This document shows, piece after piece, positions 11,264-26,486 of a stretch of 64,000 nt of DNA; position 1 is the stretch's first letter; every line of letters begins with the position of its first letter. The stretch is taken from the NCBI RefSeq assembly GCF_013122565.1, contig NZ_CP053258.1; one strand, written 5' to 3'. Position numbers and translations under genes: made by a program. Source of the DNA: Escherichia coli (lineage in GTDB: Bacteria > Pseudomonadota > Gammaproteobacteria > Enterobacterales > Enterobacteriaceae). The notes below the pieces were generated by a model that searched no databases, had not been told where the DNA came from, and saw only the letters and a list, made by a program, of their open reading frames with translations.

Positions 11264-13030
11264 ATGAACACCACACTGACACCCGCAGATCTCGATCCCC
11301 GTCGGCAGGCCATGCTGCTGTACTTTCAGGGATACCGCGTAGCCCGCATTGCTGAAATGCTGGGCGAGAAAGTTGCAACCGTTCACAGCTGGAAAAAACG
11401 CGACAAGTGGGGTGACTATGGGCCGCTGGATCAGATGCAGCTCACCACCGCCGCACGCTACTGCCAGCTCATCATGAAGGAGCACAAAGAAGGGAAAGAT
11501 TTCAAAGAGATTGACCTGCTGGCGCGCCAGTCTGAGCGCCACGCGCGGATCGGCAAGTTTAACAATGGCGGCAACGAATCCGACTTAAACCCTAACGTCG
11601 CCAACCGCAACAAAGGCCCACGCCGTCAGCCGGAAAAGAATGTTTTCACCGATGAGCAGATTGAGAAGCTGGAAGAAATCTTCCATTCCTCCATGTTCAA
11701 CTACCAGCGCCACTGGTGGGAAGCCGGAAAAACCAACCGCATCCGCAACCTGCTGAAGTCACGCCAGATCGGCGCGACCTTTTACTTTGCCCGTGAAGCC
11801 CTGATTGACGCCCTGCTGACCGGACGTAACCAGATTTTCCTTTCCGCCAGCAAGGCACAGGCCCACGTCTTTAAGCAGTACATCATCGACTTCGCCAAAG
11901 AAGTGGAGGTGGAGTTGAAAGGCGATCCGATGGTGCTTCCTAACGGGGCCACGCTTTACTTCCTCGGCACCAATGCCCGCACGGCCCAGAGTTATCACGG
12001 CAACCTGTATCTGGATGAATATTTCTGGATACCGAAATTCCAGGAGCTGCGCAAAGTGGCTTCCGGTATGGCTATTCACAAGAAATGGCGACAAACCTAT
12101 TTTTCCACGCCATCCAGCCTGACACACAGTGCTTATCCGTTCTGGTCCGGTGCGCTATTCAACCGTGGGCGCAACAAAGCCGATAAGGTGGACATCGACC
12201 TGTCCCACAGCAATCTGGCCCCCGGCCTGCTGTGCGCAGACGGGCAATACCGCCAGATTGTCACCGTGGAAGATGCAGTGCGCGGCGGATGTAACCTGTT
12301 CGACCTCGATCAGTTACGCATGGAGTACAGCCCGGACGAATACCAGAACCTGCTGATGTGCGAGTTTGTGGACGATCTCGCGTCTGTGTTCCCACTCAGC
12401 GAGCTGCAGGCGTGCATGGTGGACAGCTGGGAAGTCTGGACCGACTTTCATGCACTGGCACTGCGCCCATTTGGCTGGCGCGAAGTGTGGATCGGTTATG
12501 ACCCGGCGAAAGGTACGCAGAACGGCGACAGTGCCGGATGCGTGGTGGTGGCACCGCCAGCCGTGCCGGGCGGCAAGTTCCGCATTCTTGAGCGTTACCA
12601 GTGGCGCGGGATGGACTTTCGCGCCCAGGCTGACGCCATCAAAAAACTGACCGAACAGTACAACGTGACCTATATCGGCATCGACTCAACCGGCGTTGGT
12701 CACGGGGTTTATGAGAACGTGAAAGCGTTCTTTCCTGCCGTCCGGGAGTTTGTCTACAACCCCAACGTTAAAAACGCCCTGGTACTCAAGGCCTACGACA
12801 TTATCAGCCACCGCCGTCTGGAGTTTGACGCCGGGCACACCGACATTGCGCAGTCATTCATGGCAATCCGTCGCGCCACCACCGCCAGTGGCAACCGCCC
12901 GACCTATGAAGCCAGCCGCAGCGAAGAAGCCAGCCACGCCGATCTGGCCTGGGCAACGATGCACGCACTGTTTAACGAACCGCTGCAGGGCGAATCCGCC
13001 AATACCAGCAATATTGTGGAGATTTTTTGA
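11264..13030 (+). CDS. Terminase large (ATPase) subunit (P2 gpP-like)
   Basis: 588 aa; divergent from O as in P2. Confidence 0.9.
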   Translation: MNTTLTPADLDPRRQAMLLYFQGYRVARIAEMLGEKVATVHSWKKRDKWGDYGPLDQMQLTTAARYCQLIMKEHKEGKDFKEIDLLARQSERHARIGKFNNGGNESDLNPNVANRNKGPRRQPEKNVFTDEQIEKLEEIFHSSMFNYQRHWWEAGKTNRIRNLLKSRQIGATFYFAREALIDALLTGRNQIFLSASKAQAHVFKQYIIDFAKEVEVELKGDPMVLPNGATLYFLGTNARTAQSYHGNLYLDEYFWIPKFQELRKVASGMAIHKKWRQTYFSTPSSLTHSAYPFWSGALFNRGRNKADKVDIDLSHSNLAPGLLCADGQYRQIVTVEDAVRGGCNLFDLDQLRMEYSPDEYQNLLMCEFVDDLASVFPLSELQACMVDSWEVWTDFHALALRPFGWREVWIGYDPAKGTQNGDSAGCVVVAPPAVPGGKFRILERYQWRGMDFRAQADAIKKLTEQYNVTYIGIDSTGVGHGVYENVKAFFPAVREFVYNPNVKNALVLKAYDIISHRRLEFDAGHTDIAQSFMAIRRATTASGNRPTYEASRSEEASHADLAWATMHALFNEPLQGESANTSNIVEIF

Positions 13031-14064
13031 TGGGAAAGAGTAAGAAGAACCGAGCTGCGGCGACGAAACAGATCCAGCTTAAAAGTCAAACTACAGCCGA
13101 AGCATTCAGCTTCGGCGATCCCGTTCCTGTTCTGGACCGCCGAGAATTACTGGACTATGTGGAATGCGTACAGATGGACCGTTGGTATGAGCCGCCCGTC
13201 AGCTTTGACGGACTGGCGCGCACCTTCCGCGCTGCAGTGCATCACAGTTCCCCGATTGCAGTAAAGTGCAACATTCTGACCAGTACCTACATCCCTCACC
13301 CGCTGCTCAGCCAGCAGGCTTTTTCACGTTTTGTGCAGGACTATCTGGTATTTGGTAACGCCTACCTGGAGAAACGCACGAACCGATTCGGTGAAGTTAT
13401 CGCCCTTGAGCCTGTGCTGGCAAAATACACCCGACGCGGGTTAGACCTGGATACCTACTGGTTTGTGCAATACGGCATGACTACACAGCCGTATCAGTTC
13501 ACGAAAGGCAGCATTTTTCACCTGATGGAACCGGATATCAACCAAGAGATCTACGGCCTGCCCGGTTATCTTTCTGCCATTCCGTCAGCCCTGCTCAACG
13601 AGTCCGCCACGCTGTTCCGCCGCAAGTATTACATTAACGGCAGCCACGCAGGCTTCATCATGTACATGACCGACGCCGCGCAGAACCAGGAGGATGTAAA
13701 CAACCTCCGTAACGCGATGAAAAGCGCCAAAGGACCAGGCAACTTCCGTAACCTGTTTATGTACTCGCCGAACGGCAAAAAGGACGGGCTTCAGATCATC
13801 CCATTGTCTGAAGTCGCGGCAAAGGATGAGTTTCTGAATATCAAAAATGTTAGTCGCGATGACATGATGGCGGCACACCGCGTGCCGCCGCAAATGATGG
13901 GGATTATGCCTAATAATGTTGGGGGGTTTGGGGATGTGGAGAAAGCGAGTATGGTATTTGTGAGGAATGAATTAATTCCTCTACAAAGGCGTTTAGAAGA
14001 GCTTAATTTGTGGCTAGAAGAGGAAGCCATAAAATTCAAACCATACAATTTATCAGATAATTAG
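13027..14064 (+). CDS. Portal protein (P2 gpQ-like)
   Basis: 345 aa; ATGA overlap with P. Confidence 0.9.
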   Translation: MMGKSKKNRAAATKQIQLKSQTTAEAFSFGDPVPVLDRRELLDYVECVQMDRWYEPPVSFDGLARTFRAAVHHSSPIAVKCNILTSTYIPHPLLSQQAFSRFVQDYLVFGNAYLEKRTNRFGEVIALEPVLAKYTRRGLDLDTYWFVQYGMTTQPYQFTKGSIFHLMEPDINQEIYGLPGYLSAIPSALLNESATLFRRKYYINGSHAGFIMYMTDAAQNQEDVNNLRNAMKSAKGPGNFRNLFMYSPNGKKDGLQIIPLSEVAAKDEFLNIKNVSRDDMMAAHRVPPQMMGIMPNNVGGFGDVEKASMVFVRNELIPLQRRLEELNLWLEEEAIKFKPYNLSDN

Positions 14065-14070
14065 AATCAT

Positions 14071-14108
14071 GGCCCTAGTATATTATCATTTTCACTAGGG
14101 CTTTCTTT
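14071..14108. terminator. Hairpin between convergent portal and RT genes (bidirectional terminator candidate)
   Basis: ggccctagt ... actaggg stem followed by ctttctttc. Confidence 0.4.
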
Positions 14109-15869
14109 CTATATGCTGCATATTTTTTTATAATGTTCAAAAACATCTTTAAAAGTGTTGAGTATTATTTCAAAACCACTAAAATCAACTTTTCGTTTTT
14201 TATCCCTAACTACTTTCACAGAGAAAACATGTTTCCCATATTCAGTTTTTGAGTCCCCATCGTTCTTTTTGTTAAATTTTTTACCACCAAGAATAGTTGA
14301 TAATACATCATGAGTAAAAAGATCTTCCATCGCAGTCTGCTCACCAGTAGCACTTAAAGGCGTTAGAATGATATAGAGATTTTTAAAGACATGGATAAAT
14401 CTCATTTTTCTCATTTTATTGGTATCATCGGGGCAGCTCTTAACATTATTTTTAAGGAAATTCAAAATCTCATTAGAACCAGAATCGTTGTCCAATACCA
14501 TGATAACCGGGTGCTTAGGAATGCTTCCATAGTAGCTTGAATATTCATCCATATATCTTTCGATGAATTTTTTAAGATCTGCGCTACCTCCAGACATATT
14601 AATAAAATAACTTGACTTCTCATCAGATTTAAAAATATTCAAGTTGATATCATTTCCTTTACCGTCTGTGCTTTTCTTGAGCAACTCAGGAAATTTGGCA
14701 GAAAGTGAACGAATAGCTGATTTTAAATATACTCGATCAGTTTTGCCTTCTGTCAAGATTGTCGGGGAAGCATGTCCATGAAAAAACTTGTAGTAAATAA
14801 ATTTACTATATGCCTTCTCTCGTACATTCAGCTTTAACCTGTAGTTTTTTAATGTAATATGAATAGGCGCATATTTTTCAGGCTGTTTACTTATTTTATC
14901 TTGTATGTTATTAAATTTATCAATCTGGTCAATAAACCCAAATCTTCCCTCTAGTTTTTCGATACTCCCCACGACTAGCTTACCATCTTCATCAGGTAGC
15001 TTATATTCTCCCTTACTATAAAGTGAATGAGCTAATGCTCTTGTTTTATTCGAATATTTCCTATCAACGTTAACAAATCTATTTATAGTAAGTCCCGTAA
15101 CTTCTTGTCTCGTGGATTTGTACGAGATCCTTGTTTTAGCATCATTAATATCAAAACCAGCACGTTTTATTTCACTGACAAGAATGCTCCCCAAGACAAC
15201 CCCCTCAGGAAGAGATATTGCCAAATCGGTAGGAAATTCTTTTTTATTAGTTGAAAACGTGATGTCATCGGCATAACGACTATATGAACAACCTAAACTC
15301 TTTGCTAATTTAGCTAATCTAATATCCATAATGCTACAAATTAAGTTTGTTATCACTGGAGAACACGGGCTACCCTGAGGCAAACTTCCCTTATAGCATG
15401 CGGCTTTAGCTAAAGTAGTGGCGACAATCGGATTTAATAAGAAATCCCTATTGGATAGGAAGTACCCTCTCACTCGCCCAAAATTAAAGCTTTTGAAAAA
15501 ATCCTTAAGATCAATATTGAGTATTATATTTTTCCCACGATGTCTGAAAGCATTGGAAATTATTGACTTATTTCTTTCAAAACCAAAGGAGTAATTGTTT
15601 TTAATTTTTTTAATTTTGAAAGTTTCATCTCTACACTCCATTAAAAGATCGGCTATTCGTCTTTGGAGATCTTTCAAACTATCTTCTGGCGCAGAAATCA
15701 ATCTGACTCCCTTACCTTTTTTTGGAATAGAGAAATCTTTATACTGATTATCAGTACCAATTCTGTAAAGAATATTCGTTAAAAACACCAACTTAACATC
15801 TAGCAATTTTGCCAAGTCAGCACGAGATGCTGCGACTTTCAAAAGTAGTAATTTAGAAGTTGCGACCAT
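14109..15869 (-). CDS. ret: Retron reverse transcriptase with C-terminal TOPRIM domain (RT-TOPRIM fusion; consistent with retron-Ec67 / Retron-Eco2 RT)
   Basis: 586 aa; RT motifs [23 protein letters not shown] (res 199-202); TOPRIM-like TEGKTD (373-378) and VLDNDSG (458-464); strongly AT-rich. Confidence 0.9.
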
Positions 15870-15904
15870 AATTATATTTTATCGTAGAAGTTAGTAAGAG
15901 AGGA

Positions 15905-16040
15905 AGAACGCATGTAGGCACTCCTTCGCACAGCACAACGGCCCTATAGCGACGAAACAAGGATGTCAGGGATGCGATTCCACCTGCCATTAAAATCACT
16001 GGTTGTGATACACAACCAACAAATCTGCCTACATGCGCAT
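15905..16040 (-). ncRNA. msr-msd: Retron msr-msd-like non-coding RNA locus flanked by a1/a2 inverted repeats
   Basis: 12-bp inverted repeat cgcatgtaggca at 15909-15920 and 16026-16037 with about 105 bp between them; internal hairpin ggttgtg-tat-cacaacc; a2 lies 40 nt upstream of the RT start. Confidence 0.5.
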
Positions 16041-16108
16041 AAATGAAACTACCATTTCAACGTCTTCATTTCCAGTAATATATTTCAAATATCTACACTG
16101 AGCGCGCG

Positions 16109-16127
16109 CTCGTATCCCCGCCACGCC
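16109..16127 (-). other. Candidate cos cohesive-end site
   Basis: Minus-strand GGCGTGGCGGGGATACGAG; first 13 nt match the 186/P2 cohesive end as I recall it (GGCGTGGCGGGGA...). Confidence 0.4.
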
Positions 16128-16171
16128 TGCCCGCTTTATGTAGTGGTTTTCATGCAGGTGCATGATCTACG

Positions 16172-16196
16172 CAAAAGCCCGCCAGTTCTGGCGGGC
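16172..16196 (-). terminator. Rho-independent terminator ending the A/tum early transcript
   Basis: Stem gcccgccag/tggcgggc with T-tract on the minus strand. Confidence 0.55.
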
Positions 16197-16469
16197 CTTA
16201 GCAAAAACGATCCTCAAACGATCATGCAATCTCATGCAGCATAGACATGCACAGACGAGTAAAGCGAATCGGACCTTACGCAAGGTGAACTCCTCAGCGG
16301 GCATAATCAGTATGTCGGAAGATCTCTAAAAATAAATAATTCGGTTAACAGGTATGCTTACAAAAGCATATATTTGATTAAAAATCATGTAAGGGGGAGG
16401 ATCTCAAACTGAATCGCCACGGGTTTTACAAATTTCGATAGTCTCTCTAACGTTTCGGCTGAGGTCAAA

Positions 16470-16895
16470 ATGAAAAGCTTTTACGTATTAATTTTAATTC
16501 TGGTTGCAAGCTTTGTTAGCGTCCCAGTTCAGGCGGTAACAGCTAAAAACTATGAGAAAGGAACTAAAGCTCAACAGAAATCAATATCTTACCTTTCATG
16601 TGCATTCTATGGCAGTAGCACACAATTAGATCCTAGCTACACGGAGCAAGTACCTACAGCCGATATCAAGATATTACAGAAAGCAGCTTACCACGCTTAC
16701 AACGATGCGCTCTCATACTTTGGCTATGAGGAACCAGATCACGAACAACGCATAATTGATTATGCTGAATTTGTGGCGTCGCAAGAAGCTGTGTTATGGG
16801 ATAAGCCGGGAATGAATGGAAAGCAGGTAACACTAATTGCTCGTTCTCTCTACAATGAGAGTAACTGTAACTTGTTACTGGACTCAATTAAGTAG
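16470..16895 (+). CDS. AT-rich cargo gene: small secreted protein of unknown function
   Basis: 141 aa; signal peptide MKSFYVLILILVASFVSVPVQA; GAGG RBS; low GC. Confidence 0.7.
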   Translation: MKSFYVLILILVASFVSVPVQAVTAKNYEKGTKAQQKSISYLSCAFYGSSTQLDPSYTEQVPTADIKILQKAAYHAYNDALSYFGYEEPDHEQRIIDYAEFVASQEAVLWDKPGMNGKQVTLIARSLYNESNCNLLLDSIK

Positions 16896-17054
16896 GAAAA
16901 AGATGGTATTTTGCCCGTAGTTTCAACCTTAATCTCCGAACCTGTCGCAGAACGGGCGTTCACTCATCAAATAAACGCCACACCTAACGCCTCACTGTAC
17001 TCGTTGTTCAACCTTGCTGACGCCAGAACCAAGTTCAGACGCCAGCAACTTTTC

Positions 17055-17288
17055 TTAATGCAGCCAGCTGTCGTCTTCCCACACCTTCTGCATAATCTTC
17101 ATCACTTGTTTTCTTTCTTCGTCCAGTTGCAGTCCGGTCAGTTCCACACCGTTAGAGCTACCTTTGCGGATGCGAATTACCGTTTTGGGATACAGGGGGC
17201 GCAGATTGCGGTAAAGCTCGGATTCAAGGGCGTCCAGGGTAGACTGGCTAATCTTCTGCTCTTTATCGATCATTATTTCAATGCGCAT
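17055..17288 (-). CDS. DinI-family protein (Tum antirepressor C-terminal-domain-like)
   Basis: Start trimmed to MRIEIMIDKEQ... (GAGGTG RBS); pattern MRIE...LDALESEL...WEDDSW resembles DinI. Confidence 0.7.
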   Translation of the reverse strand: MRIEIMIDKEQKISQSTLDALESELYRNLRPLYPKTVIRIRKGSSNGVELTGLQLDEERKQVMKIMQKVWEDDSWLH

Positions 17289-17298
17289 AAAGGTCACC

Positions 17299-17487
17299 TC
17301 AGCTGATGACATCCATTGAGCGGTTGTATTCGTGGGTTCTGATTTTTGCCATGAGTTCATCAGTCAATTCAGAAACCCACTGCAGAGCCAGCCCCTTCTC
17401 TTCATCACTACACTCACTAGCCGCTACAAGCTTAAGAAAAAAATCAATGCGCTGGAGCTTCAAAGACTCCAAAAAATAGTCCTGCAT
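17299..17487 (-). CDS. Small protein upstream of DinI-like ORF (possible N-terminal part of a Tum-like antirepressor)
   Basis: 62 aa; directly downstream of a LexA box; separated from the DinI ORF by a frame change. Confidence 0.5.
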   Translation of the reverse strand: MQDYFLESLKLQRIDFFLKLVAASECSDEEKGLALQWVSELTDELMAKIRTHEYNRSMDVIS

Positions 17488-17639: not shown

Positions 17640-20054
17640 TTAATACAGGTTCCGCCACTTATCATCTTCCTGCAAACGCTGGTTCCGATAGAAGATACGC
17701 AGGCCTGCTCCTGACGGAATACTGCCGCCGCGAAGGAGTAAATCGACCTCTTTCTCGCTGCCATCAAATCCTCTGGACTTCAGTTCATAGACGAGCTGCT
17801 GTCGCTGATGGTCTGTAATTCGCTGTTTGTAGTCTTTACGCCGTTTCGGTTTCACCAGGCGTAACCTTGCAGCCAGTTCCCGGCGCTCTTTTTTGCTCAT
17901 ACTGTGCAGGTATTCGTGCAACTCCTTGTCATCCATGCGGGTAATGTCCGTTCTGGTATCCCCATCAGCTGATTTGTCTTTCCCTTGTTGGTTCAAATTT
18001 TCAGCAAGGGGACAGTTATTGCCACGAGTCCAAGGGGCGCAAGCGCCCTGGTCGGCTACCGCCTCCTGAACGTCAACGGCTTTACGAACCATTTTCCACT
18101 TCACTGCATGAGTGCAGATCTTGCCCTCTGCAATGGGTGACCAGATGCCATAAATACGAATGCCGTGATCGCCATAGGCGGTCGGCTCTTCGTTAATTTC
18201 ATAAGCAGTTCTGATGAGGTGATATTTGCGGGGAACCAGTACGCCGCCCTGCTTCATGATGTAAGTGGCAAAACAACCAGCATCAGCAGCAGCCAGGATT
18301 GCATCAAGGCGCGGGTTATCCAGTACCGGCGCACCTGCTTTTTTGTCCCCCTGTTGCCTTGCCGCCTGACCAGCCAACAATCGCAGTTCACGGTAAGCCT
18401 GACGCCCCGGAATGCCAAAGAAGCGGAATTGCTGAACACGATGCAAAGACGCCCAGGCATTCACGTATTCAGCGTTATCACGCAGAGATTTACCCGTTTC
18501 CTTGCTGATCTCGCCAGCCAGACCACGCCCGTCAATGTTCTTACTGATGTATTTCGCGATGTAGCTTGTTGGCGTACCTTTGCGCGGGTTTATCAGCTCA
18601 GACTTAAAGCGTGGTCCCGTGTTATTACCCAGCTCCTCGCGGTCTTCACGAATGGCAAACTTACGCAACAAAGCAGTAATGGCTCGGCGATCTTTTTTGC
18701 GCATAAAACACAACAGGTGCCAGTGCACTGTACCGTCATGATGCGGCTCAGCCACCCGCACGCCATACCAGCGCAATCCGGCTTTGTGCATCGCTTTACG
18801 AAATGCAGCAAACATGCCGACCAGATAATCACTGCTTTGTCTTACCGTCGCGTTTGTCCAGGTCGGGTTTGGTCTGCCGTTATTTAGCGTGGAATGGAAA
18901 CGTGACGGACAGGTGATGGTGTAGAAAACGGCGCAGTCACCGCGCATTTCCGCGATAAGCTCCAGACCTTTAACACAGGCCATCATCTCATTGCGGCGAT
19001 GCGCAGGGTTGCTGCTGCTGGCGTTTACCACGTCTTCCATATCCAGCGTGTCGCCGTCTTCGTTCACCAGTTCATGAGAACGAAAAAACTCCAGCGACTT
19101 ACGGCGCTGCTCACGTTTATGCATCACGGCTTCATAGCTGACATAGGGAGATGCTTTTTTGCTGACCAGGCAGACAGCGCGCAACTGCTCTTCCCGCCAT
19201 TCGCAACGCATCTTCCATAATTTCCGATACCACCAGTCGGCGCACAACATACGCGCCAGCGAACCCGGAATGAGTTCATAGGGCACGGGTTTACGGCGGT
19301 TTCTTTTCCGGCGGAGTTGCTCAAACGCAGGTGGGATGACATCCAGTCGCAGGGTTTCTGCTGCCACCCTTTCCCATGTCTTGCGGATTTCTTCTGGCTT
19401 AACGTCATCGGTGGCATACAAATCGCCACAAGCTGCATCAAGGCACATGCTCATATGCGCAGCTACCAGGGTGGACAGGCGTTTCACCTGATCCTGACTC
19501 ATTTCAGGCAGGATCAGCAGGCCGTCCAGCCCTTCCTGGCTCGCCATAAAGCGAAAAGCAGTGGATAGCTGACTGTCGCGTACATGCTCCAGCCGTTCCA
19601 GACATGGCTTAATCGTCTCACGCAAATAGCGGGAATAAGCCTTTGGCCTGCCCAGGCTGCTGAAGTATTCAATACGTTGCATCAGCGGCTTGCTGATATG
19701 GGAAGGCTGGGCGTTAACGTCCGCCAGAATGACCATGTCTGGATTAAAACGCTGCTGCTCATGCGCCAGCTTTGCCCGGCTAATGAGCTTATCCTGCTCT
19801 ATTTCGCGTTGGACAGGATCACGGGATTCATTAAAGAAATAACGCTCCCAGACCTGATCACTCAGAGCCTCGCGGCGCAGTTGTTCCTGCTCGTTATCGG
19901 CAGCGTACAGAGTGATCAGGTTTGAAAGCGCAGAAACCGGCGCAACTTCCGCCGGGTCCAGATAAGGGTTAATGGCCTTTTTCGGGCTGTTCCATGAGAA
20001 TGCTGCGGCGACCTCGTTAAAGCCGCTGCAGTTGTTCATATCATCATGGCTCAT
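17640..20054 (-). CDS. Replication initiation protein (P2 gpA-like rolling-circle nickase)
   Basis: 804 aa; position downstream of early genes; stop/start overlap with the methylase gene. Confidence 0.9.
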
Positions 20055-20908
20055 GCACGCACTCCGTACATGGCAGAACTATCCACGCCACGCGAAGGAT
20101 CAAATCCCACCCAGCAGCGCGCCCCGGAAACAGCAATGATTTCTGTTGCAGATTTACTCTCGCCAGCCGACACGCCGATGCTGCGTTTTGCCTTGATGTA
20201 GTGGTGAGTGAAATTGCGATACAGCGAACGAATCAGGGATGTGTCACTGTTAGAAACAATGACCGGATGTCCTTCAGATGCTCGATGTTCAAGAACGGAT
20301 GCCAGGTGATACTGGTCATCTTCAGTGAAACCATCAGTGTGATAGCCGGAAAACGTACCGTCATACGGCGGATCGCAATACACCACATCCCCCGCCTTCA
20401 ACATCGCCAGCGTTTCATCAAAGCTGGCGCAGATAAACGTTGCCCGCTGGGCTTTTTCTGCAAATGCGCGAATTTCTTTTTCAGGGAAATACGGATTTTT
20501 ATAATTACCGTAGGGAATGTTGAAATGCCCGCTCTTGTTATAGCGACATAAACCACGGTAACCGTGACGATTGAGATACAGGAAATATACCGCTTTCATG
20601 AAATCAGTAATTTCAGTGGAGTAATTAAACTCCTGCCTTATGTTGTAATAAGCCACCTCCCTGTTTGCGATCTCAAATAAAACTCTGGCGCGAGATATAA
20701 ACGATTCACAATCAGCGGCAACCTTTTTATAGAGGTTGATTAAATCAAGATTAATATCCGCAACCAGATAGCTTGGATAATCCGTCTCCATCATCACAGC
20801 ACAGGAACCCGCGAAAGGTTCAACCAGTCGCGGGCCAGCAGGAAGGTGTTTTTTCAGTTCGGACATAATTGCGGTTTTATTTCCCGCCCATTTCAGGATG
20901 GTGCTCAT
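20051..20908 (-). CDS. DNA adenine methyltransferase (Dam family, orphan)
   Basis: Start trimmed to [11 protein letters not shown]; motif I-like FAGSCAV and motif IV DPPY (VYCDPPYDG). Confidence 0.85.
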
Positions 20909-21132
20909 ACAGCACCTCCGTTGTAATGTTTGCCTTTCAGCTCTGCGATTTCCTGACAGGTAATGCAAAGCTGCACTCCCGGAATGGCGCGGCGTCGTGC
21001 TGGCGGAATTGGCGCTTCACATTCAATGCAAAGTACGCGTGACACGCCCGGTGATTTGGCACGGGCTGCACGGATATGGCGCTGGCGTTCTTCTTCAACG
21101 CGCTGCTGTACGAGATCCATTGCATCAGCCAT
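20905..21132 (-). CDS. DksA/TraR-family C4 zinc-finger protein
   Basis: 75 aa; CIECEAPIPPARRRAIPGVQLCITCQ (CxxC-N17-CxxC). Confidence 0.75.
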   Translation of the reverse strand: MADAMDLVQQRVEEERQRHIRAARAKSPGVSRVLCIECEAPIPPARRRAIPGVQLCITCQEIAELKGKHYNGGAV

Positions 21133-23054: not shown

Positions 23055-23651
23055 ATGTCAACATCAAAGTACCCAAGTGAGATCAAAATAAATCCCAATA
23101 AAGGTGGTAAGGCTGCGATTGAGCGATTAGTCGAAGCCTATGGCTTTACGACACGACAGGCTTTAGCTGATCACTTGGAAGTATCAAAAAGCACACTAGC
23201 GAACAGGTATTTGCGGGATACATTTCCTGCTGACTGGATAATCCAATGTGCTCTTGAAACAGGAACCTCCCTCAAATGGTTAACTACCGGACAAGGCCTT
23301 AAGCAAAGCTCGCTGACAGCAGCTACAGAAGAGCTTGTTAAGTTTCGCCTTGCCGCAGGCAAAATGATTGAAGACGGTTCATATGTCTTCGATTCATCAT
23401 TTCTTCCTGCAAACCTTTCATCACCAATTGTTATTCAGGATGGACTCGTCACATACATTTGTGATCAAAAATTTTCTGAAGTACTTGATGGAAACTGGTT
23501 AATCAATATCGACGGAACCTATTCCATTCGAAAAATCACAAGGCTTCCTAAAGGAATGATTAAAATTACAACAGCAGAGAATAGCTTTGAATGTGCATTT
23601 TCTGATATTGAAGTGGTTGCTTGTATAAGAAGTACAATAGTCTCGAATTAA
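23055..23651 (+). CDS. cI: CI-like immunity repressor (186 CI type)
   Basis: 198 aa; position between switch region and int; N-terminal HTH-like segment. Confidence 0.7.
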   Translation: MSTSKYPSEIKINPNKGGKAAIERLVEAYGFTTRQALADHLEVSKSTLANRYLRDTFPADWIIQCALETGTSLKWLTTGQGLKQSSLTAATEELVKFRLAAGKMIEDGSYVFDSSFLPANLSSPIVIQDGLVTYICDQKFSEVLDGNWLINIDGTYSIRKITRLPKGMIKITTAENSFECAFSDIEVVACIRSTIVSN

Positions 23652-23671: not shown

Positions 23672-25348
23672 ATGAATTCATTTGCCATCGTTATACTCTT
23701 ATTAGCATTTCTCGCCCCTGTTCTAGCTGTAATATTATTTAAACAAAGTAAAAAACACAAAGCGGCTATAGATAACCTGACAGCTAACAACATAGCCCTT
23801 TCTAACCAACTGATTGAAAATCAAGAAAAACTAGCACAGACCGTACGAGAATTATCAGATCTTGAAGGGCGAGCAGCACCATTGTGGCAATACGAAGAAT
23901 TGCACAGCGCAGTAATGGATGCAGAGAATAAGATAAAAAATGCGGACTCAATAGCCAAGCAAAAAATAGATGAAGCCCAAATTAAGGCGGCTAAAACAGT
24001 AAACGAAGCAAATTATCAAGCTCAGATAACAATAAGCAACGCTAATAGCGAAGCTATAGCAATCACCAAAGACGCTCGCGATGCACGCCTGAAAGCCAAA
24101 GAACGTCTTGATAATGCTAATAATAAAGCAAATGAGCTAATCTCAAATGCTAATGACAATGCAGTAAAAATTATTTCTGATGCAGAAGAAAGAGCAAAGG
24201 AGATTGCTGGTTCAGCATATGAAGCTAAAGAGTTTGCAGAAAAATATGAAGCAGTTGCAAAATCAATGAAAAATAAAATTGAAGGTTATGGTGATGAATG
24301 GATCATCCCTAACCGTAGTGTACTTGATGAGCTGGCAGAAAATTATGAATTTACAGATGCAGGCAAGGAATTACAAAAAGCCAGAGAGTTAACCAAATCA
24401 TTAATAAAAACTAATAAAGCTGCTTCGTGTGATTATGTTGAGCAAAACAGGCGTAATACTGCCATAAACTTTGTTTTGGATGCCTTCAATGGAAGAGTTG
24501 ACAGTATTTTATCAAAAGTCAAACACAACAATTTTGGAAAACTTTCCCAAGAAATAAAAGATGCATTTCAACTAGTAAATTACAATGGCTCTGCCTTTAG
24601 GTCCGCAAAAATAAGTGACATCTATCTTCAGGCAAGACTCAACGAGCTAAAATGGGGTGTAGCAGTTAATGAAATTATGCTCGAAGAAAAAGAAGAGCAA
24701 AGAAGGATTAAAGAACAGCTTCGTGAAGAGGAAAGAGCTCGTAGAGAATATGAAAAAGCGATAAAAGAAGCTGAAAAAGAAGAAAAAGCTATTCAGCAAG
24801 CTATAAATAAAGCAACGAAAGAACTTATGCTTGCAAATGAAGAACAACGCTTAGCTTTAGAGCAAAAAATAGCTGAACTACAGTTAAAATATGAAGAAGC
24901 TGAAGCTAAAAATCAACGAGCTATTTCTATGGCTCAACAAACCAGATCAGGCCACGTCTATATCATTAGTAATATTGGTTCATTTGGCGAAGATGTATAT
25001 AAAATTGGAATGACACGCCGCCTTGAACCACTTGATCGTGTTCGTGAACTCGGAGATGCTAGTGTTCCTTTTTCGTTCGATGTTCATGCGATGATTTATA
25101 GTGATGATGCACCATCATTAGAAAACCATCTGCATAAAGTTTTCAACGAAAAGCAGGTCAATAAAATTAACTCACGAAAAGAGTTTTTTAACGTAAATTT
25201 AAAAGAAATCAAATCAGTTATTGAAGACATGAACATCAACGCCCACTGGACAATGTTTGCAGAGGCGAAAGAATATAGAGAGTCTCTAGCTATTGAGCAG
25301 GAGCGCAAAGCAGCCACTTCCGCCAACGATGAACTACATGTTGCTTAG
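23672..25348 (+). CDS. AT-rich cargo gene: membrane-anchored coiled-coil protein with C-terminal T5orf172 (GIY-YIG-like) domain; DUF4041-type architecture; defense candidate
   Basis: 558 aa; N-terminal TM helix, long K/E/A-rich coiled coils, C-terminal GHVYIISNIGSFGEDVYKIGMTRRLEPLDRVRELGDASVPFSFDV; co-directional with cI and int. Confidence 0.85.
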   Translation: MNSFAIVILLLAFLAPVLAVILFKQSKKHKAAIDNLTANNIALSNQLIENQEKLAQTVRELSDLEGRAAPLWQYEELHSAVMDAENKIKNADSIAKQKIDEAQIKAAKTVNEANYQAQITISNANSEAIAITKDARDARLKAKERLDNANNKANELISNANDNAVKIISDAEERAKEIAGSAYEAKEFAEKYEAVAKSMKNKIEGYGDEWIIPNRSVLDELAENYEFTDAGKELQKARELTKSLIKTNKAASCDYVEQNRRNTAINFVLDAFNGRVDSILSKVKHNNFGKLSQEIKDAFQLVNYNGSAFRSAKISDIYLQARLNELKWGVAVNEIMLEEKEEQRRIKEQLREEERARREYEKAIKEAEKEEKAIQQAINKATKELMLANEEQRLALEQKIAELQLKYEEAEAKNQRAISMAQQTRSGHVYIISNIGSFGEDVYKIGMTRRLEPLDRVRELGDASVPFSFDVHAMIYSDDAPSLENHLHKVFNEKQVNKINSRKEFFNVNLKEIKSVIEDMNINAHWTMFAEAKEYRESLAIEQERKAATSANDELHVA

Positions 25349-25430: not shown

Positions 25431-26486
25431 ATGGCAGTACGAAAACTAACCACAGGGAAATGGCTTTGCGAATGTTACCCCGCCGGACGTAGCGGACGCC
25501 GTGTGCGTAAACAATTCGCCACCAAAGGCGAAGCACTGGCCTTCGAGCGATACACCATGGGGGAAATAGAAGCAAAGCCCTGGCTGGGCGAATCAGTGGA
25601 TCGTCGGACACTGAAAGATATGGTTGAGCTATGGTTCAAATTACATGGCAAATCTCTTACTGCCGGACAGCATGTCTACAACAAGCTGCTGTTGATGGTT
25701 GACGCCTTGGGAAATCCCCTTGCAACTGATCTCACCTCAAAAATGTTTGCTCACTATCGCGATAAACGCCTTACTGGTGAAATCTACTTCAGTGAAAAAT
25801 GGAAGAAAGGAGCAAGCCCAGTTACTGTTAACCTGGAGCAAAGCCATCTAAGCAGCGTTTTCAGAGAACTTTCCCGCCTGGGTGAATGGACACTTCCAAA
25901 CCCATTAGAGAAGATGCGCAAATTCACTATCGCAGAAAAGGAAATGGCATGGCTTACACATGAGCAGATTATCGAATTACTGTCTGACTGCAAACGTCAG
26001 AACCCAATTCTGGCACTGGTGGTAAAAATATGTCTAAGTACAGGCGCACGTTGGCGAGAAGCAATCAATCTTACCCGCTCACAGGTCACCAAGTACCGAA
26101 TCACCTTTGTGAGAACGAAGGGGAAGAAAAACAGAAGCATCCCTATCAGTAAAGAGCTTTATGAAGAGATCATGGCGCTCGATGGGTTCAATTTCTTCAC
26201 AGACTGCTATTTTCAATTTTTATCCGTGATGGAAAAAACGTCTATCGTTCTCCCTCGCGGTCAACTGACACACGTTCTGCGCCATACGTTTGCGGCGCAC
26301 TTCATGATGTCGGGTGGAAACATCTTGGCCTTACAAAAAATTCTCGGACACCACGATATAAAAATGACTATGCGTTATGCGCATCTGGCACCGGATCATT
26401 TGGAAACGGCGCTCCGTTTCAATCCACTGGCAACGTTACCAAATGGCGACAAAGTGGCGGCAGCGGTTGGCATTACCCCGCAATAA
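25431..26486 (+). CDS. int: Tyrosine site-specific integrase (P2/186-like)
   Basis: 351 aa; C-terminal catalytic region ...LRHTFAAHFMMSGGNILALQKILGHHDIKMTMRYAHL (R, H-x-x-R, Y). Confidence 0.9.
   Translation: MAVRKLTTGKWLCECYPAGRSGRRVRKQFATKGEALAFERYTMGEIEAKPWLGESVDRRTLKDMVELWFKLHGKSLTAGQHVYNKLLLMVDALGNPLATDLTSKMFAHYRDKRLTGEIYFSEKWKKGASPVTVNLEQSHLSSVFRELSRLGEWTLPNPLEKMRKFTIAEKEMAWLTHEQIIELLSDCKRQNPILALVVKICLSTGARWREAINLTRSQVTKYRITFVRTKGKKNRSIPISKELYEEIMALDGFNFFTDCYFQFLSVMEKTSIVLPRGQLTHVLRHTFAAHFMMSGGNILALQKILGHHDIKMTMRYAHLAPDHLETALRFNPLATLPNGDKVAAAVGITPQ

What the first reader, a model, noticed from the sequence alone, without database searches (positions are those of the whole stretch)
16470..16895. 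Small AT-rich secreted protein of unknown function in the cargo region next to the retron
A 141-aa ORF with a clear signal peptide (cleavage likely after VQA), a GAGG RBS and low GC lies on the opposite strand to the phage early genes, between the tum module and cos. I do not recognize the family. Its location suggests a lysogenic-conversion or exclusion function.
Basis: seen in the sequence. Interest (0 to 1): 0.45.

Follow-up and report, generated by a model that had tools for sequence, protein, structure and literature searches.

The report
Orphan secreted prophage protein beside cos
A real, conserved gene for a small protein exported to the periplasm sits in its own cargo slot at the right end of a 186/P2-like prophage; it has nothing to do with the neighbouring retron, and its function is unknown, most plausibly protection of the cell envelope against other phages.

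Summary
Window 16470-16895 (+) is a 141-aa ORF with a GAGG ribosome-binding site, 40% GC against about 51% in the prophage, and a Sec-type signal peptide.

It is a real gene:
- full-length match to PHROG 7437 (function unknown);
- dN/dS 0.18-0.27;
- the exact protein is indexed in 11,519 sample blocks.

All 15 family members keep a signal peptide. All 14 full-length mature domains keep exactly two cysteines and an acidic, hydrophilic character. AlphaFold gives a confident helical bundle (pLDDT 94.7) with no informative structural or Pfam relative. The DUF1311/LprI lead failed testing.

The cos site lies at 16109-16127. The retron Ec67 sits on the portal side of cos. The ORF sits on the other side, in a roughly 730-bp insertion (16254-16985) between cos and the DinI/Tum-like gene. 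In phage 186 that slot holds orf97, annotated as blocking 186 infection.

Across 46 loci carrying the ORF, the portal-side cargo falls into 26 classes, so the ORF is independent of the retron. Bases 16364-16450 are a dead remnant of a 215-aa two-transmembrane partner gene that precedes homologs in Hafnia and Klebsiella prophages.

Function is inferred, not shown. My best guess is an envelope-level exclusion or immunity protein (about 0.4).

The parts
16470..16895 (+). CDS of the 141-aa exported protein (PHROG 7437 family)
   Evidence: ORF call; same CDS annotated in RefSeq; PHROG 7437 at E 4e-99; dN/dS 0.18-0.27
16470..16535 (+). Signal-peptide coding part (22 codons, predicted cleavage VQA|VT)
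   Evidence: The only hydrophobic segment. Equivalent Sec-type leaders in all 15 family members. In comparisons with Hafnia and the lambdoid copy, the leader has higher dN than the mature part. No SignalP run was available.
16461..16464 (+). GAGG ribosome-binding site, 5 nt before the ATG
   Evidence: Read from the sequence; conserved in the Klebsiella copy, AAGG in Hafnia
16345..16374 (+). Sigma-70 promoter-like site TTAACA-18-TATATT (10 of 12), candidate promoter
   Evidence: Consensus scan. The number of such sites in the region is not above shuffles, so this is only a candidate. The -10 lies inside the pseudogene remnant.
16364..16450 (+). Dead remnant (last ~28 codons, with stops) of the 215-aa two-TM partner gene that precedes homologs elsewhere
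   Evidence: tblastn of the Hafnia 215-aa protein: 57% over 28 aa here, 64% in the Klebsiella loci. The window reads KHIFD*KSCKGEDLKLNRHGFYKFR* against the Hafnia C-terminus KHTFDYKSGKWEDLKPWEFYRFRDAL*.
16254..16985 (.). Roughly 730-bp insertion cassette (moron) relative to P2/186-like prophages that lack the ORF; 41% GC
   Evidence: Alignment with the ORF-less E. coli prophage L020; boundaries are approximate to within a few bases. GC.
16109..16127 (.). cos cohesive-end sequence (19 nt) of the prophage
   Evidence: Single pattern hit in 64 kb. Aligns to the annotated cos of phage 186 in the circularised junction.
16128..16253 (.). Conserved cos-flanking right-end segment of the virion DNA (backbone; left boundary of the slot)
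   Evidence: About 1290 E. coli genomes share sequence starting at 16102; also found in phage records; alignment
17055..17360 (-). DinI/Tum-like gene, convergent with the ORF (backbone; right boundary of the slot). RefSeq calls 17055-17288.
   Evidence: NCBIfam DinI at E 1e-10; RefSeq annotation; 186 tum annotation
14109..15869 (-). Retron Ec67-family RT-Toprim gene. A neighbour on the other side of cos, not part of this feature.
   Evidence: NCBIfam retron_Ec67_fus at 686 bits, above the cut-off of 450; PADLOC RT-Toprim_I-C, 'single gene'

Best explanation
Shown:
- The ORF is a genuine gene under purifying selection.
- It is carried on a ~730-bp low-GC insertion in the slot between cos and the DinI/Tum-like gene, at the extreme right end of a 186/P2-like genome.
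- It is independent of the retron and of every other portal-side cargo.

Strongly inferred:
- The product is exported through Sec and its leader is removed after VQA.
- The ~119-aa acidic mature protein folds in the periplasm into a compact five-helix bundle.
- The two invariant cysteines (C44 and C133) probably form a disulfide.

Inferred from context only:
- It acts by binding a protein target in the cell envelope, so that the lysogen (or, for the distant homologs, the infected cell) is protected at the envelope.
- The most likely mode is superinfection exclusion: blocking a periplasmic step of an incoming phage, such as the tail-tip cell-wall hydrolase or DNA transfer across the periplasm. 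Periplasmic T4 Spackle and P1 Sim work this way (from memory).
- It originally came as the second gene of a pair, behind a 215-aa membrane protein with two N-terminal transmembrane helices. In the E. coli/Klebsiella P2-likes only the last 28 codons of that partner survive. The orphan is still under selection, so it works alone.

Confidence by step:
- real, exported, autonomous accessory gene: about 0.9;
- envelope-level exclusion as its role: about 0.35-0.4.
For: Gene reality:
- PHROG 7437 full-length match.
- dN/dS 0.18-0.27, including 0.19 between the two orphan copies in E. coli and Klebsiella.
- Exact protein indexed in 11,519 blocks.
- 104 of 5426 complete E. coli genomes carry it.

Export:
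- All 15 members carry a Sec-type leader although the leader sequence diverges.
- All 14 full-length mature domains have exactly 2 Cys, pI 4.5-5.3 and negative GRAVY.
- C44 is invariant; C133 is kept in every member except the C-terminally aberrant P0005. In the mature-domain alignment, which leaves P0005 out, C22, W88, Y106, N110 and C111 are invariant.

Fold: AF2 pLDDT 94.7, pTM 0.87, five helices.

Autonomy:
- Insertion boundaries against an ORF-less prophage.
- 26 portal-side cargo classes among 46 ORF-bearing loci. Named examples are SLFN/AlbA_2, KAP NTPase, trypsin, AAA_15/21, PIN_12, SieB, DprA+PRTase, AIPR and nSTAND1; only one other locus has this retron.

Phage-only contexts:
- Two different P2-like slots, a lambdoid prophage end, SU10-type prophages, and ~105-116-kb non-mobilizable plasmids that may be phage-plasmids.
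- In the distant relatives it lies in co-directional runs of other exported small proteins and lipoproteins.

Slot precedent:
- Phage 186 carries orf97 there, with the GenBank note 'expression from plasmid blocks 186 infection'.
- Other E. coli prophages carry DUF4145 or REase+ASCH genes there.
- The whole gpA-gpQ interval is a documented anti-phage hotspot (PMC9122126).
Against: - No PADLOC hit.
- Expression is unproven. The promoter-like site is one of three in a region where shuffles give 3.7, and no canonical terminator follows the ORF.
- The P2 hotspot also carries non-defence cargo such as partition systems and cytolethal distending toxin, so position alone is weak evidence.
- The signal peptide was judged by rule and by conservation, not by a trained predictor.
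Confidence: 0.4

Rival explanations
1. Orphan periplasmic immunity or inhibitor protein. It neutralises a cell-envelope toxin. The toxin could be the 215-aa two-TM partner protein made by phages that carry the full cassette, or a cell-wall hydrolase delivered from outside (lysozyme-type bacteriocin, T6SS amidase, host lysozyme). The P2-like lysogen keeps only the protective half.
For: - Partner and homolog are kept in the same order in two prophage lineages. The two partner proteins are 29% identical to each other, and the two ORF141 homologs are 77% and 34% identical to the window protein. A remnant of the partner lies upstream in the window.
- The orphan is still under purifying selection.
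- Tandem runs of diverged exported proteins with a similar C-terminal NC motif resemble immunity arrays.
Against: - No T6SS, CDI or bacteriocin gene in any of the neighbourhoods examined; every context is a phage, or a large plasmid with phage-type genes.
- The Tai4/Rap2a scores are no better than dozens of unrelated helical bundles, at 6-8% identity.
- A third partner homolog is followed by an unrelated protein.
- The partner has no recognisable toxin domain.
Confidence: 0.2
2. Lysogenic-conversion factor for host fitness or virulence, unrelated to phages or toxins. Examples would be a periplasmic stress chaperone or a binder of a host or environmental molecule.
For: - Classic moron features: low GC, own RBS, present or absent between close relatives, and located at prophage ends next to att sites in the lambdoid and integrase-adjacent copies.
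- The P2 hotspot also carries virulence cargo.
- Very high prevalence in Enterobacteriaceae.
Against: - Distant homologs sit inside long co-directional clusters of small phage genes, next to replication-type genes in L068, rather than at conversion sites.
Confidence: 0.2
3. It serves the phage's own lytic cycle from the periplasm, for example lysis timing (antiholin-like sensing) or envelope remodelling during entry or exit.
For: - The family is restricted to phages.
- Distant homologs are co-transcribed with other phage genes.
Against: - In no locus is it adjacent to a holin, endolysin or spanin gene.
- About 92% of E. coli genomes that carry the matching cos-DinI-gpA right-arm sequence lack it: 104 of about 1290.
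- It moves between unrelated phage types as a bare gene plus RBS.
Confidence: 0.08
4. It is an accessory or effector component of the adjacent retron Ec67.
For: Physical proximity only (about 600 nt).
Against: - cos separates them.
- Ec67-type retrons are single-gene RT-Toprim systems.
- 44 of 46 ORF-bearing loci have other cargo.
- Retrons Ec67 and Ec86 are known to replace ~180 bp between cos and the packaging-gene terminator (PMC6868368, citing Dodd and Egan 1996).
- The E. coli genome carrying the nearest retron Ec67 relative shows no ORF141 feature under the match (H21).
Confidence: 0.02
5. It is a functionless hitch-hiking remnant of a broken two-gene cassette.
For: - The upstream partner is dead.
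- No convincing promoter or terminator.
Against: - dN/dS is 0.19 between the two orphan lineages, with dS 0.23.
- The ORF is intact in nearly all of the thousands of copies, and the cluster holds mostly full-length members.
Confidence: 0.05

Closest known systems
Phage 186 orf97 (SOS operon, between tum and cos)
   Same: It occupies the same genomic slot, between the tum/DinI gene and the right cohesive end. It is an accessory envelope-associated protein, with two predicted N-terminal TM helices by my reading of the sequence. It is annotated as blocking 186 infection when expressed from a plasmid.
   Different: No sequence similarity (hhalign probability 0.3%). It is 243 aa and membrane-anchored rather than secreted. 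It is co-directional with tum and transcribed from the SOS promoter p95, whereas the 141-aa ORF is convergent with the tum-like gene.
T4 Spackle (Sp) and P1 Sim, periplasmic superinfection-exclusion proteins (from memory)
   Same: They are phage-encoded small proteins with cleavable signal peptides that act in the periplasm. Spackle is mostly helical with a disulfide.
T6SS periplasmic immunity proteins Tai4 / Rap2a
   Different: Identity is 6-8%, and the scores cannot be told apart from unrelated helical bundles. No effector or T6SS gene is nearby in any locus.
DUF1311 / LprI domain (Pfam PF07007)
   Same: It is a helical periplasmic domain with conserved cysteines. A 30%-identical family member in AFDB carries the label 'DUF1311 domain-containing protein'.
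   Different: No member of the alignment matches PF07007, even at E of 0.1 or below. hhalign against a RefSeq LprI-family protein gives probability 0.16%. There are two conserved cysteines, not four (PMC7933661). The LprI domain itself has no demonstrated lysozyme-inhibitor activity.
P2 old / tin and the gpA-gpQ hotspot cargo (Rousset et al. 2022, PMC9122126)
   Same: It is accessory cargo in the cos-proximal hotspot of P2-like phages, low in GC, and swapped between relatives.
   Different: Known hotspot cargo is cytoplasmic nucleic-acid or NTPase machinery. This is a lone secreted protein, and it sits in the sub-slot on the gpA side of cos rather than the fast-swapping portal side.

Membership tests
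PHROG 7437 (unknown function) | Full-length match to the family profile | tested here: met
   E 4.3e-99, residues 1-141 on profile positions 1-141 of 141
Sec (signal peptidase I) exported protein | Positive n-region, hydrophobic h-region of 10 residues or more, small residues at -3/-1, no lipobox, no further TM segment | tested here: met
   Leader MK + SFYVLILILVASFVSVPV + VQA|V; no other hydrophobic window. The layout is conserved in 15 of 15 members. Judged by rule only; no trained predictor was available.
Phage moron / accessory cassette | Present or absent between close relatives with sharp boundaries and deviant composition | tested here: met
   Insertion at about 16254-16985 relative to L020; 41% GC against 50-53%; the same gene occurs in four kinds of phage context
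Phage moron / accessory cassette | Own promoter and terminator | tested here: inconclusive
   One 10-of-12 promoter-like site at 16345-16374, not above shuffle expectation. No canonical terminator between 16895 and 17055; fold z-score -0.75.
Retron Ec67 system (type I-C) | Co-occurrence with the RT and msr/msd as one unit | tested here: not met
   2 of 46 ORF-bearing loci carry this retron and there are 26 cargo classes. cos lies between the two. PADLOC models the system as a single gene.
DUF1311 / LprI (PF07007) | Match to the Pfam HMM | tested here: not met
   No hit for the query even at E up to 10, and none for any of the 15 members at E 0.1 or below. hhalign against an LprI-family protein gives probability 0.16%.
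DUF1311 / LprI (PF07007) | Four conserved cysteines | tested here: not met
   Exactly two cysteines in all 14 mature domains. The four-cysteine feature is taken from PMC7933661.
T4 Spackle-type exclusion protein | Sequence or structural homology to Spackle | tested here: not met
T4 Spackle-type exclusion protein | Binds and inhibits a phage tail lysozyme; blocks superinfection | not testable with these tools
   Needs biochemical and plating assays
T6SS immunity protein (Tai4/Rap family) | Specific fold match, and adjacency to a cognate effector or T6SS genes | tested here: not met
Phage 186 Orf97 | Sequence homology | tested here: not met
   hhalign probability 0.3%. Only the slot is shared.
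Known anti-phage defence proteins (PADLOC-DB 2.0) | Match to any model | tested here: not met
   0 families at E 0.01 or below

The most novel reading that the evidence does not exclude
The 141-aa protein founds a new family of periplasmic exclusion or immunity proteins, with a fold unrelated to Spackle, Sim, Cor or Llp. The family is shared by P2/186-like, lambdoid and SU10-type prophages and by large, possibly phage-type, plasmids of Enterobacterales. It originally worked with a two-TM inner-membrane partner. The P2-like lineage keeps it as a self-sufficient orphan in a second, previously undistinguished cargo slot on the gpA side of cos.
Probability: 0.3. Interest if true: 0.55.

Novelty: new member of a known kind. 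Interest (0 to 1): 0.35.

Why it matters
The exact protein occurs in more than eleven thousand sequenced samples, yet it has no name, no domain and no structural relative. Work on P2-like hotspots has concentrated on cytoplasmic defence systems. A secreted, envelope-acting cargo protein would add a different layer, blocking at entry rather than after injection. This analysis also separates the gpA-gpQ hotspot into two slots on either side of cos, which matters for how cargo boundaries are drawn in hotspot surveys. The gene is short, autonomous and easy to clone, so the exclusion or immunity hypothesis can be tested directly. If no phenotype is found, it is an ordinary hypothetical moron.

Tried and rejected
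- **Pfam, NCBIfam, PADLOC.** No hit on the protein, and no Pfam hit on any of the 15 family members.
- **PDB sequence search** with the family profile: nothing at E up to 10.
- **Foldseek against AFDB50.** Only the family itself appears. One member is labelled DUF1311. I followed that lead and rejected it.
- **Tandem neighbours in L015/L019.** I tested whether these exported proteins are paralogs. Only a short C-terminal 'LY..NC.LL' match appeared (probability 19-26%), so this is unproven.
- **Partner 215-aa protein.** No PHROG or Pfam assignment, and only two clusters in 5.8 billion proteins. The third homolog is not followed by an ORF141 relative.
- **Orf97 of 186** against ORF141 and against the partner: no homology.
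- **tblastn against the phage collection:** no match at 1e-5. The family is seen in prophages and plasmids rather than in deposited phage genomes.
- **Rfam and tRNA scans of the window:** nothing.
- **Literature search for WP_000834899:** nothing.
- **Terminator search downstream of the ORF:** no convincing structure.

Full report
**1. The observation**

GAGG lies at 16461-16464, five bases before the ATG. The ORF is 40.4% GC. gpA is 53%, the portal gene 50%, and the first 23 kb of the window 50.6%. RefSeq annotates the identical CDS as a hypothetical protein, WP_000834899.1.

**2. It is a real gene**

- It matches PHROG 7437 (unknown function) end to end, at E 4e-99.
- The exact protein is in the large protein collection as 'MULTISPECIES: hypothetical protein [Enterobacteriaceae]'. 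It is indexed in 11,519 blocks.
- 104 of 5426 complete E. coli genomes carry the locus, 100 of them at 99% identity or more.
- Nei-Gojobori dN/dS against the Klebsiella (90% aa), Hafnia (77%) and lambdoid-prophage (77%) copies is 0.18-0.27.
- An exhaustive HMMER scan of 1.84 billion representatives found only 13 clusters. Those with a named source are Escherichia, Klebsiella, Hafnia, Enterobacter and Salmonella.

**3. The product is exported**

All 15 aligned members begin with M-K/R, then a hydrophobic run, then a leader that in most ends in small residues: VQA, VRS, AHA, AMA, VPA, VMA, TYA, VSA, SQA, ANA, VHA. This holds even though the leader sequences have diverged. The leader is the only hydrophobic window in the protein.

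All 14 full-length mature domains are acidic (pI 4.5-5.3), hydrophilic, and contain exactly two cysteines. C44 and W110 are invariant in the full alignment. C133 is kept in every member except the C-terminally aberrant P0005. In the mature-domain alignment, which leaves P0005 out, Y128 and N132 are also invariant (full-length numbering). The most conserved stretch is IIDYAEFVASQEAVLWDKPGMNG.

AlphaFold2 on the mature domain gives pLDDT 94.7 and pTM 0.87. The predicted helices are at mature residues 3-28, 41-61, 69-88, 98-108 and 111-118. The full-length model gave pLDDT 88.8. A periplasmic, probably disulfide-bonded helical bundle is therefore a strong inference. It has not been tested with a trained signal-peptide predictor or by experiment.

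**4. Anatomy of the locus**

The window is a 186/P2-like prophage. The genes, in order:
- terminase, 11264-13030;
- portal, 13027-14064;
- retron RT-Toprim, 14109-15869 (-);
- the ORF;
- DinI/Tum-like gene, 17055-17360 (-);
- a 62-aa ORF;
- gpA, 17640-20054 (-);
- Dam methylase, 20051-20968 (-).

A cos-like sequence gave a single hit in the window. Aligning the reverse complement of the circularised ends of phage 186 (NC_001317, cos annotated at 1-19) places the 19-nt cohesive end at window 16109-16127.

From 16102 rightwards the sequence is shared with about 1290 E. coli genomes. Everything to the left, up to the portal gene, is variable. The retron therefore lies between the portal gene and cos. 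Published work describes exactly this position for retrons Ec67 and Ec86 (PMC6868368, citing Dodd and Egan 1996). The ORF lies on the other side of cos, at the extreme right end of the virion DNA.

Compared with an E. coli prophage that lacks the ORF (L020), the window has an insertion of about 730 bp, roughly 16254-16985, between the cos flank and the 3' end of the DinI-like gene.

The same slot has other occupants elsewhere:
- In phage 186 it holds orf97, whose GenBank note reads 'expression from plasmid blocks 186 infection'.
- In other E. coli prophages it holds a DUF4145 gene, or a restriction-endonuclease fragment plus an ASCH gene. In both cases the portal-side slot holds something else at the same time.

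So the gpA-gpQ hotspot described by Rousset et al. (PMC9122126) has two slots, one on each side of cos.

**5. Independence from the retron**

The retron is an Ec67-family RT-Toprim: NCBIfam 686 bits against a cut-off of 450, and PADLOC type I-C, which is modelled as a single gene.

I took 46 loci that carry the ORF and its cos flank and clustered the 2.5 kb on the portal side of cos. This gave 26 classes. Only one other locus (L050, 99.95% identical) has this retron. Named alternatives include SLFN/AlbA_2+HATPase, KAP NTPase, trypsin-like, AAA_15/21, PIN_12, SieB, DprA+PRTase, AIPR, nSTAND1, DUF4325 and DUF6953. The ORF-DinI-62aa-gpA arm stays constant throughout.

**6. Origin of the cassette**

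Homology to a Hafnia alvei P2-like prophage runs from 16363 to 16902. Homology to a lambdoid or siphovirus-type prophage runs only from 16439 to 16893, which is the bare gene plus its RBS.

In Hafnia the homolog sits between tail gene S and baseplate gene V. It is preceded, 20 nt upstream, by a 215-aa protein with two N-terminal transmembrane helices (my reading of the sequence). A 29%-identical version of that protein (E 5e-17) precedes the 34%-identical homolog in Klebsiella aerogenes SU10-type prophages.

Window 16364-16450 translates to KHIFD*KSCKGEDLKLNRHGFYKFR*. The Hafnia C-terminus is KHTFDYKSGKWEDLKPWEFYRFRDAL*. This is a dead remnant of the partner gene, and it is shared by the Klebsiella P2-like copies.

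The P2-like cassette is therefore an orphan half of a two-gene unit. The pairing is not universal: a third partner homolog is followed by an unrelated protein.

**7. Wider contexts**

Family members were found in these places:
- at the end of a lambdoid prophage, after the tail spike and next to the trp operon;
- directly after an integrase;
- in a contig with ParA/ParG and a terminase gene;
- on non-mobilizable plasmids of 105 kb upward, most of them 105-116 kb, which are possibly phage-plasmids;
- next to replication-type genes.

In the distant relatives, the flanking genes often encode other exported small proteins or lipoproteins (L012, L014, L015, L017, L019). No locus contains T6SS, CDI, bacteriocin or lysis genes next to a family member.

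**8. What it resembles**

Nothing specific.
- Pfam, NCBIfam and PADLOC are empty.
- The PDB sequence search is empty.
- Foldseek against AFDB50 returns only the family.

One AFDB member carries a DUF1311 label. I rejected that link for three reasons. There is no PF07007 match in any member. hhalign against a RefSeq LprI-family protein gives probability 0.16%. The family has two conserved cysteines rather than four. Orf97 of 186 is not homologous either.

**9. Mechanism**

Shown: this is a selected, autonomous, phage-restricted accessory gene in a variable slot.

Strongly inferred: the product is a periplasmic, probably disulfide-bonded helical bundle.

Inferred from context only: it binds an envelope target and protects the cell. 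The most likely mode is exclusion of superinfecting phage at a periplasmic step (about 0.35-0.4). Three observations favour this:
- the family is found only in phage or phage-type contexts;
- the slot's occupant in 186 blocks infection;
- it is placed among co-directional phage genes in the distant relatives.

The main rivals are:
- an orphan immunity or inhibitor protein, against the membrane partner or against cell-wall hydrolases (0.2);
- a host-fitness conversion factor (0.2);
- a role in the phage's own lytic cycle (0.08);
- a dead remnant (0.05);
- a retron component (0.02).

**10. Verdict**

The finding is real and correctly described. Its link to the retron is only positional. It is a new, uncharacterised member of a familiar kind: a phage moron encoding an exported protein. 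It is notable for three things: high prevalence, orphan origin, and its location in a second cargo slot beside cos. Interest is moderate (0.35).

Noticed in passing
window 16109-16127, with slots at 14065-16101 and 16254-16985: The cos site divides the published gpA-gpQ hotspot of P2-like phages into two cargo slots that vary independently. The portal-side slot swaps quickly (26 classes in 46 loci). The gpA-side slot is empty in many prophages but holds orf97 in 186, and DUF4145 or REase+ASCH genes in other E. coli prophages.
   Followed up: partly
window 14109-16100 (-): The retron is an Ec67-family RT-Toprim (586 aa) with its presumed msr/msd upstream of the RT. The nearest copy in 5426 complete E. 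coli genomes is only about 79% identical (H21), while an IMG/VR contig (L050) is 99.95% identical. Rfam found no msr family at gathering threshold.
   Followed up: partly
window 23672-25348 (+): A 558-aa ORF lies between the CI-like repressor (23055-23651) and the integrase (25431-26486). It is 82% identical to the Klebsiella prophage protein that carries the SNIPE/T5orf172/MUG113 Pfam hits in L004 and L006, and it has no NCBIfam hit. This looks like a third cargo slot (cI-int) holding a nuclease-like candidate defence gene.
   Followed up: partly
L014 5672-7438; L015 6267-8635; L017 6113-7179; L019 6540-7917; L012 351-1092: Distant homologs of the 141-aa protein sit in co-directional runs of other small exported proteins and lipoproteins. 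Several of these are helical-looking, with an N-terminal Cys and a C-terminal 'NC' motif. These may be islands of envelope-acting phage proteins. Paralogy is not established (hhalign probability 19-26%).
   Followed up: partly
L007 8624-9640 (Hafnia alvei P2-like prophage): Just downstream of the Hafnia cassette is a 338-aa ORF with what looks by eye like a PD-(D/E)xK nuclease motif (DLLAID...VVIELK). It lies in the S-V (P2 orf30) slot, which suggests that slot is also a cargo or defence site.
   Followed up: no
L021 1146-1844 (E. coli plasmid NZ_CP010244.1): On this plasmid a RefSeq 'lysozyme inhibitor LprI family protein' lies about 3 kb from the distant ORF141 homolog. It shows no homology to the ORF141 family, so the proximity is probably coincidental.
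   Followed up: yes
window 16895-17055: The ORF and the DinI/Tum-like gene converge with no canonical terminator between them. If the 186-type SOS promoter p95 exists here, induction would send antisense transcription across the ORF. That could be an on-in-lysogen, off-on-induction switch. This is untested.
   Followed up: no
protein cluster of the query (P0020): One public source names an identical-length cluster member 'outer membrane lipoprotein-sorting protein'. No profile or structural result here supports that name.
   Followed up: yes
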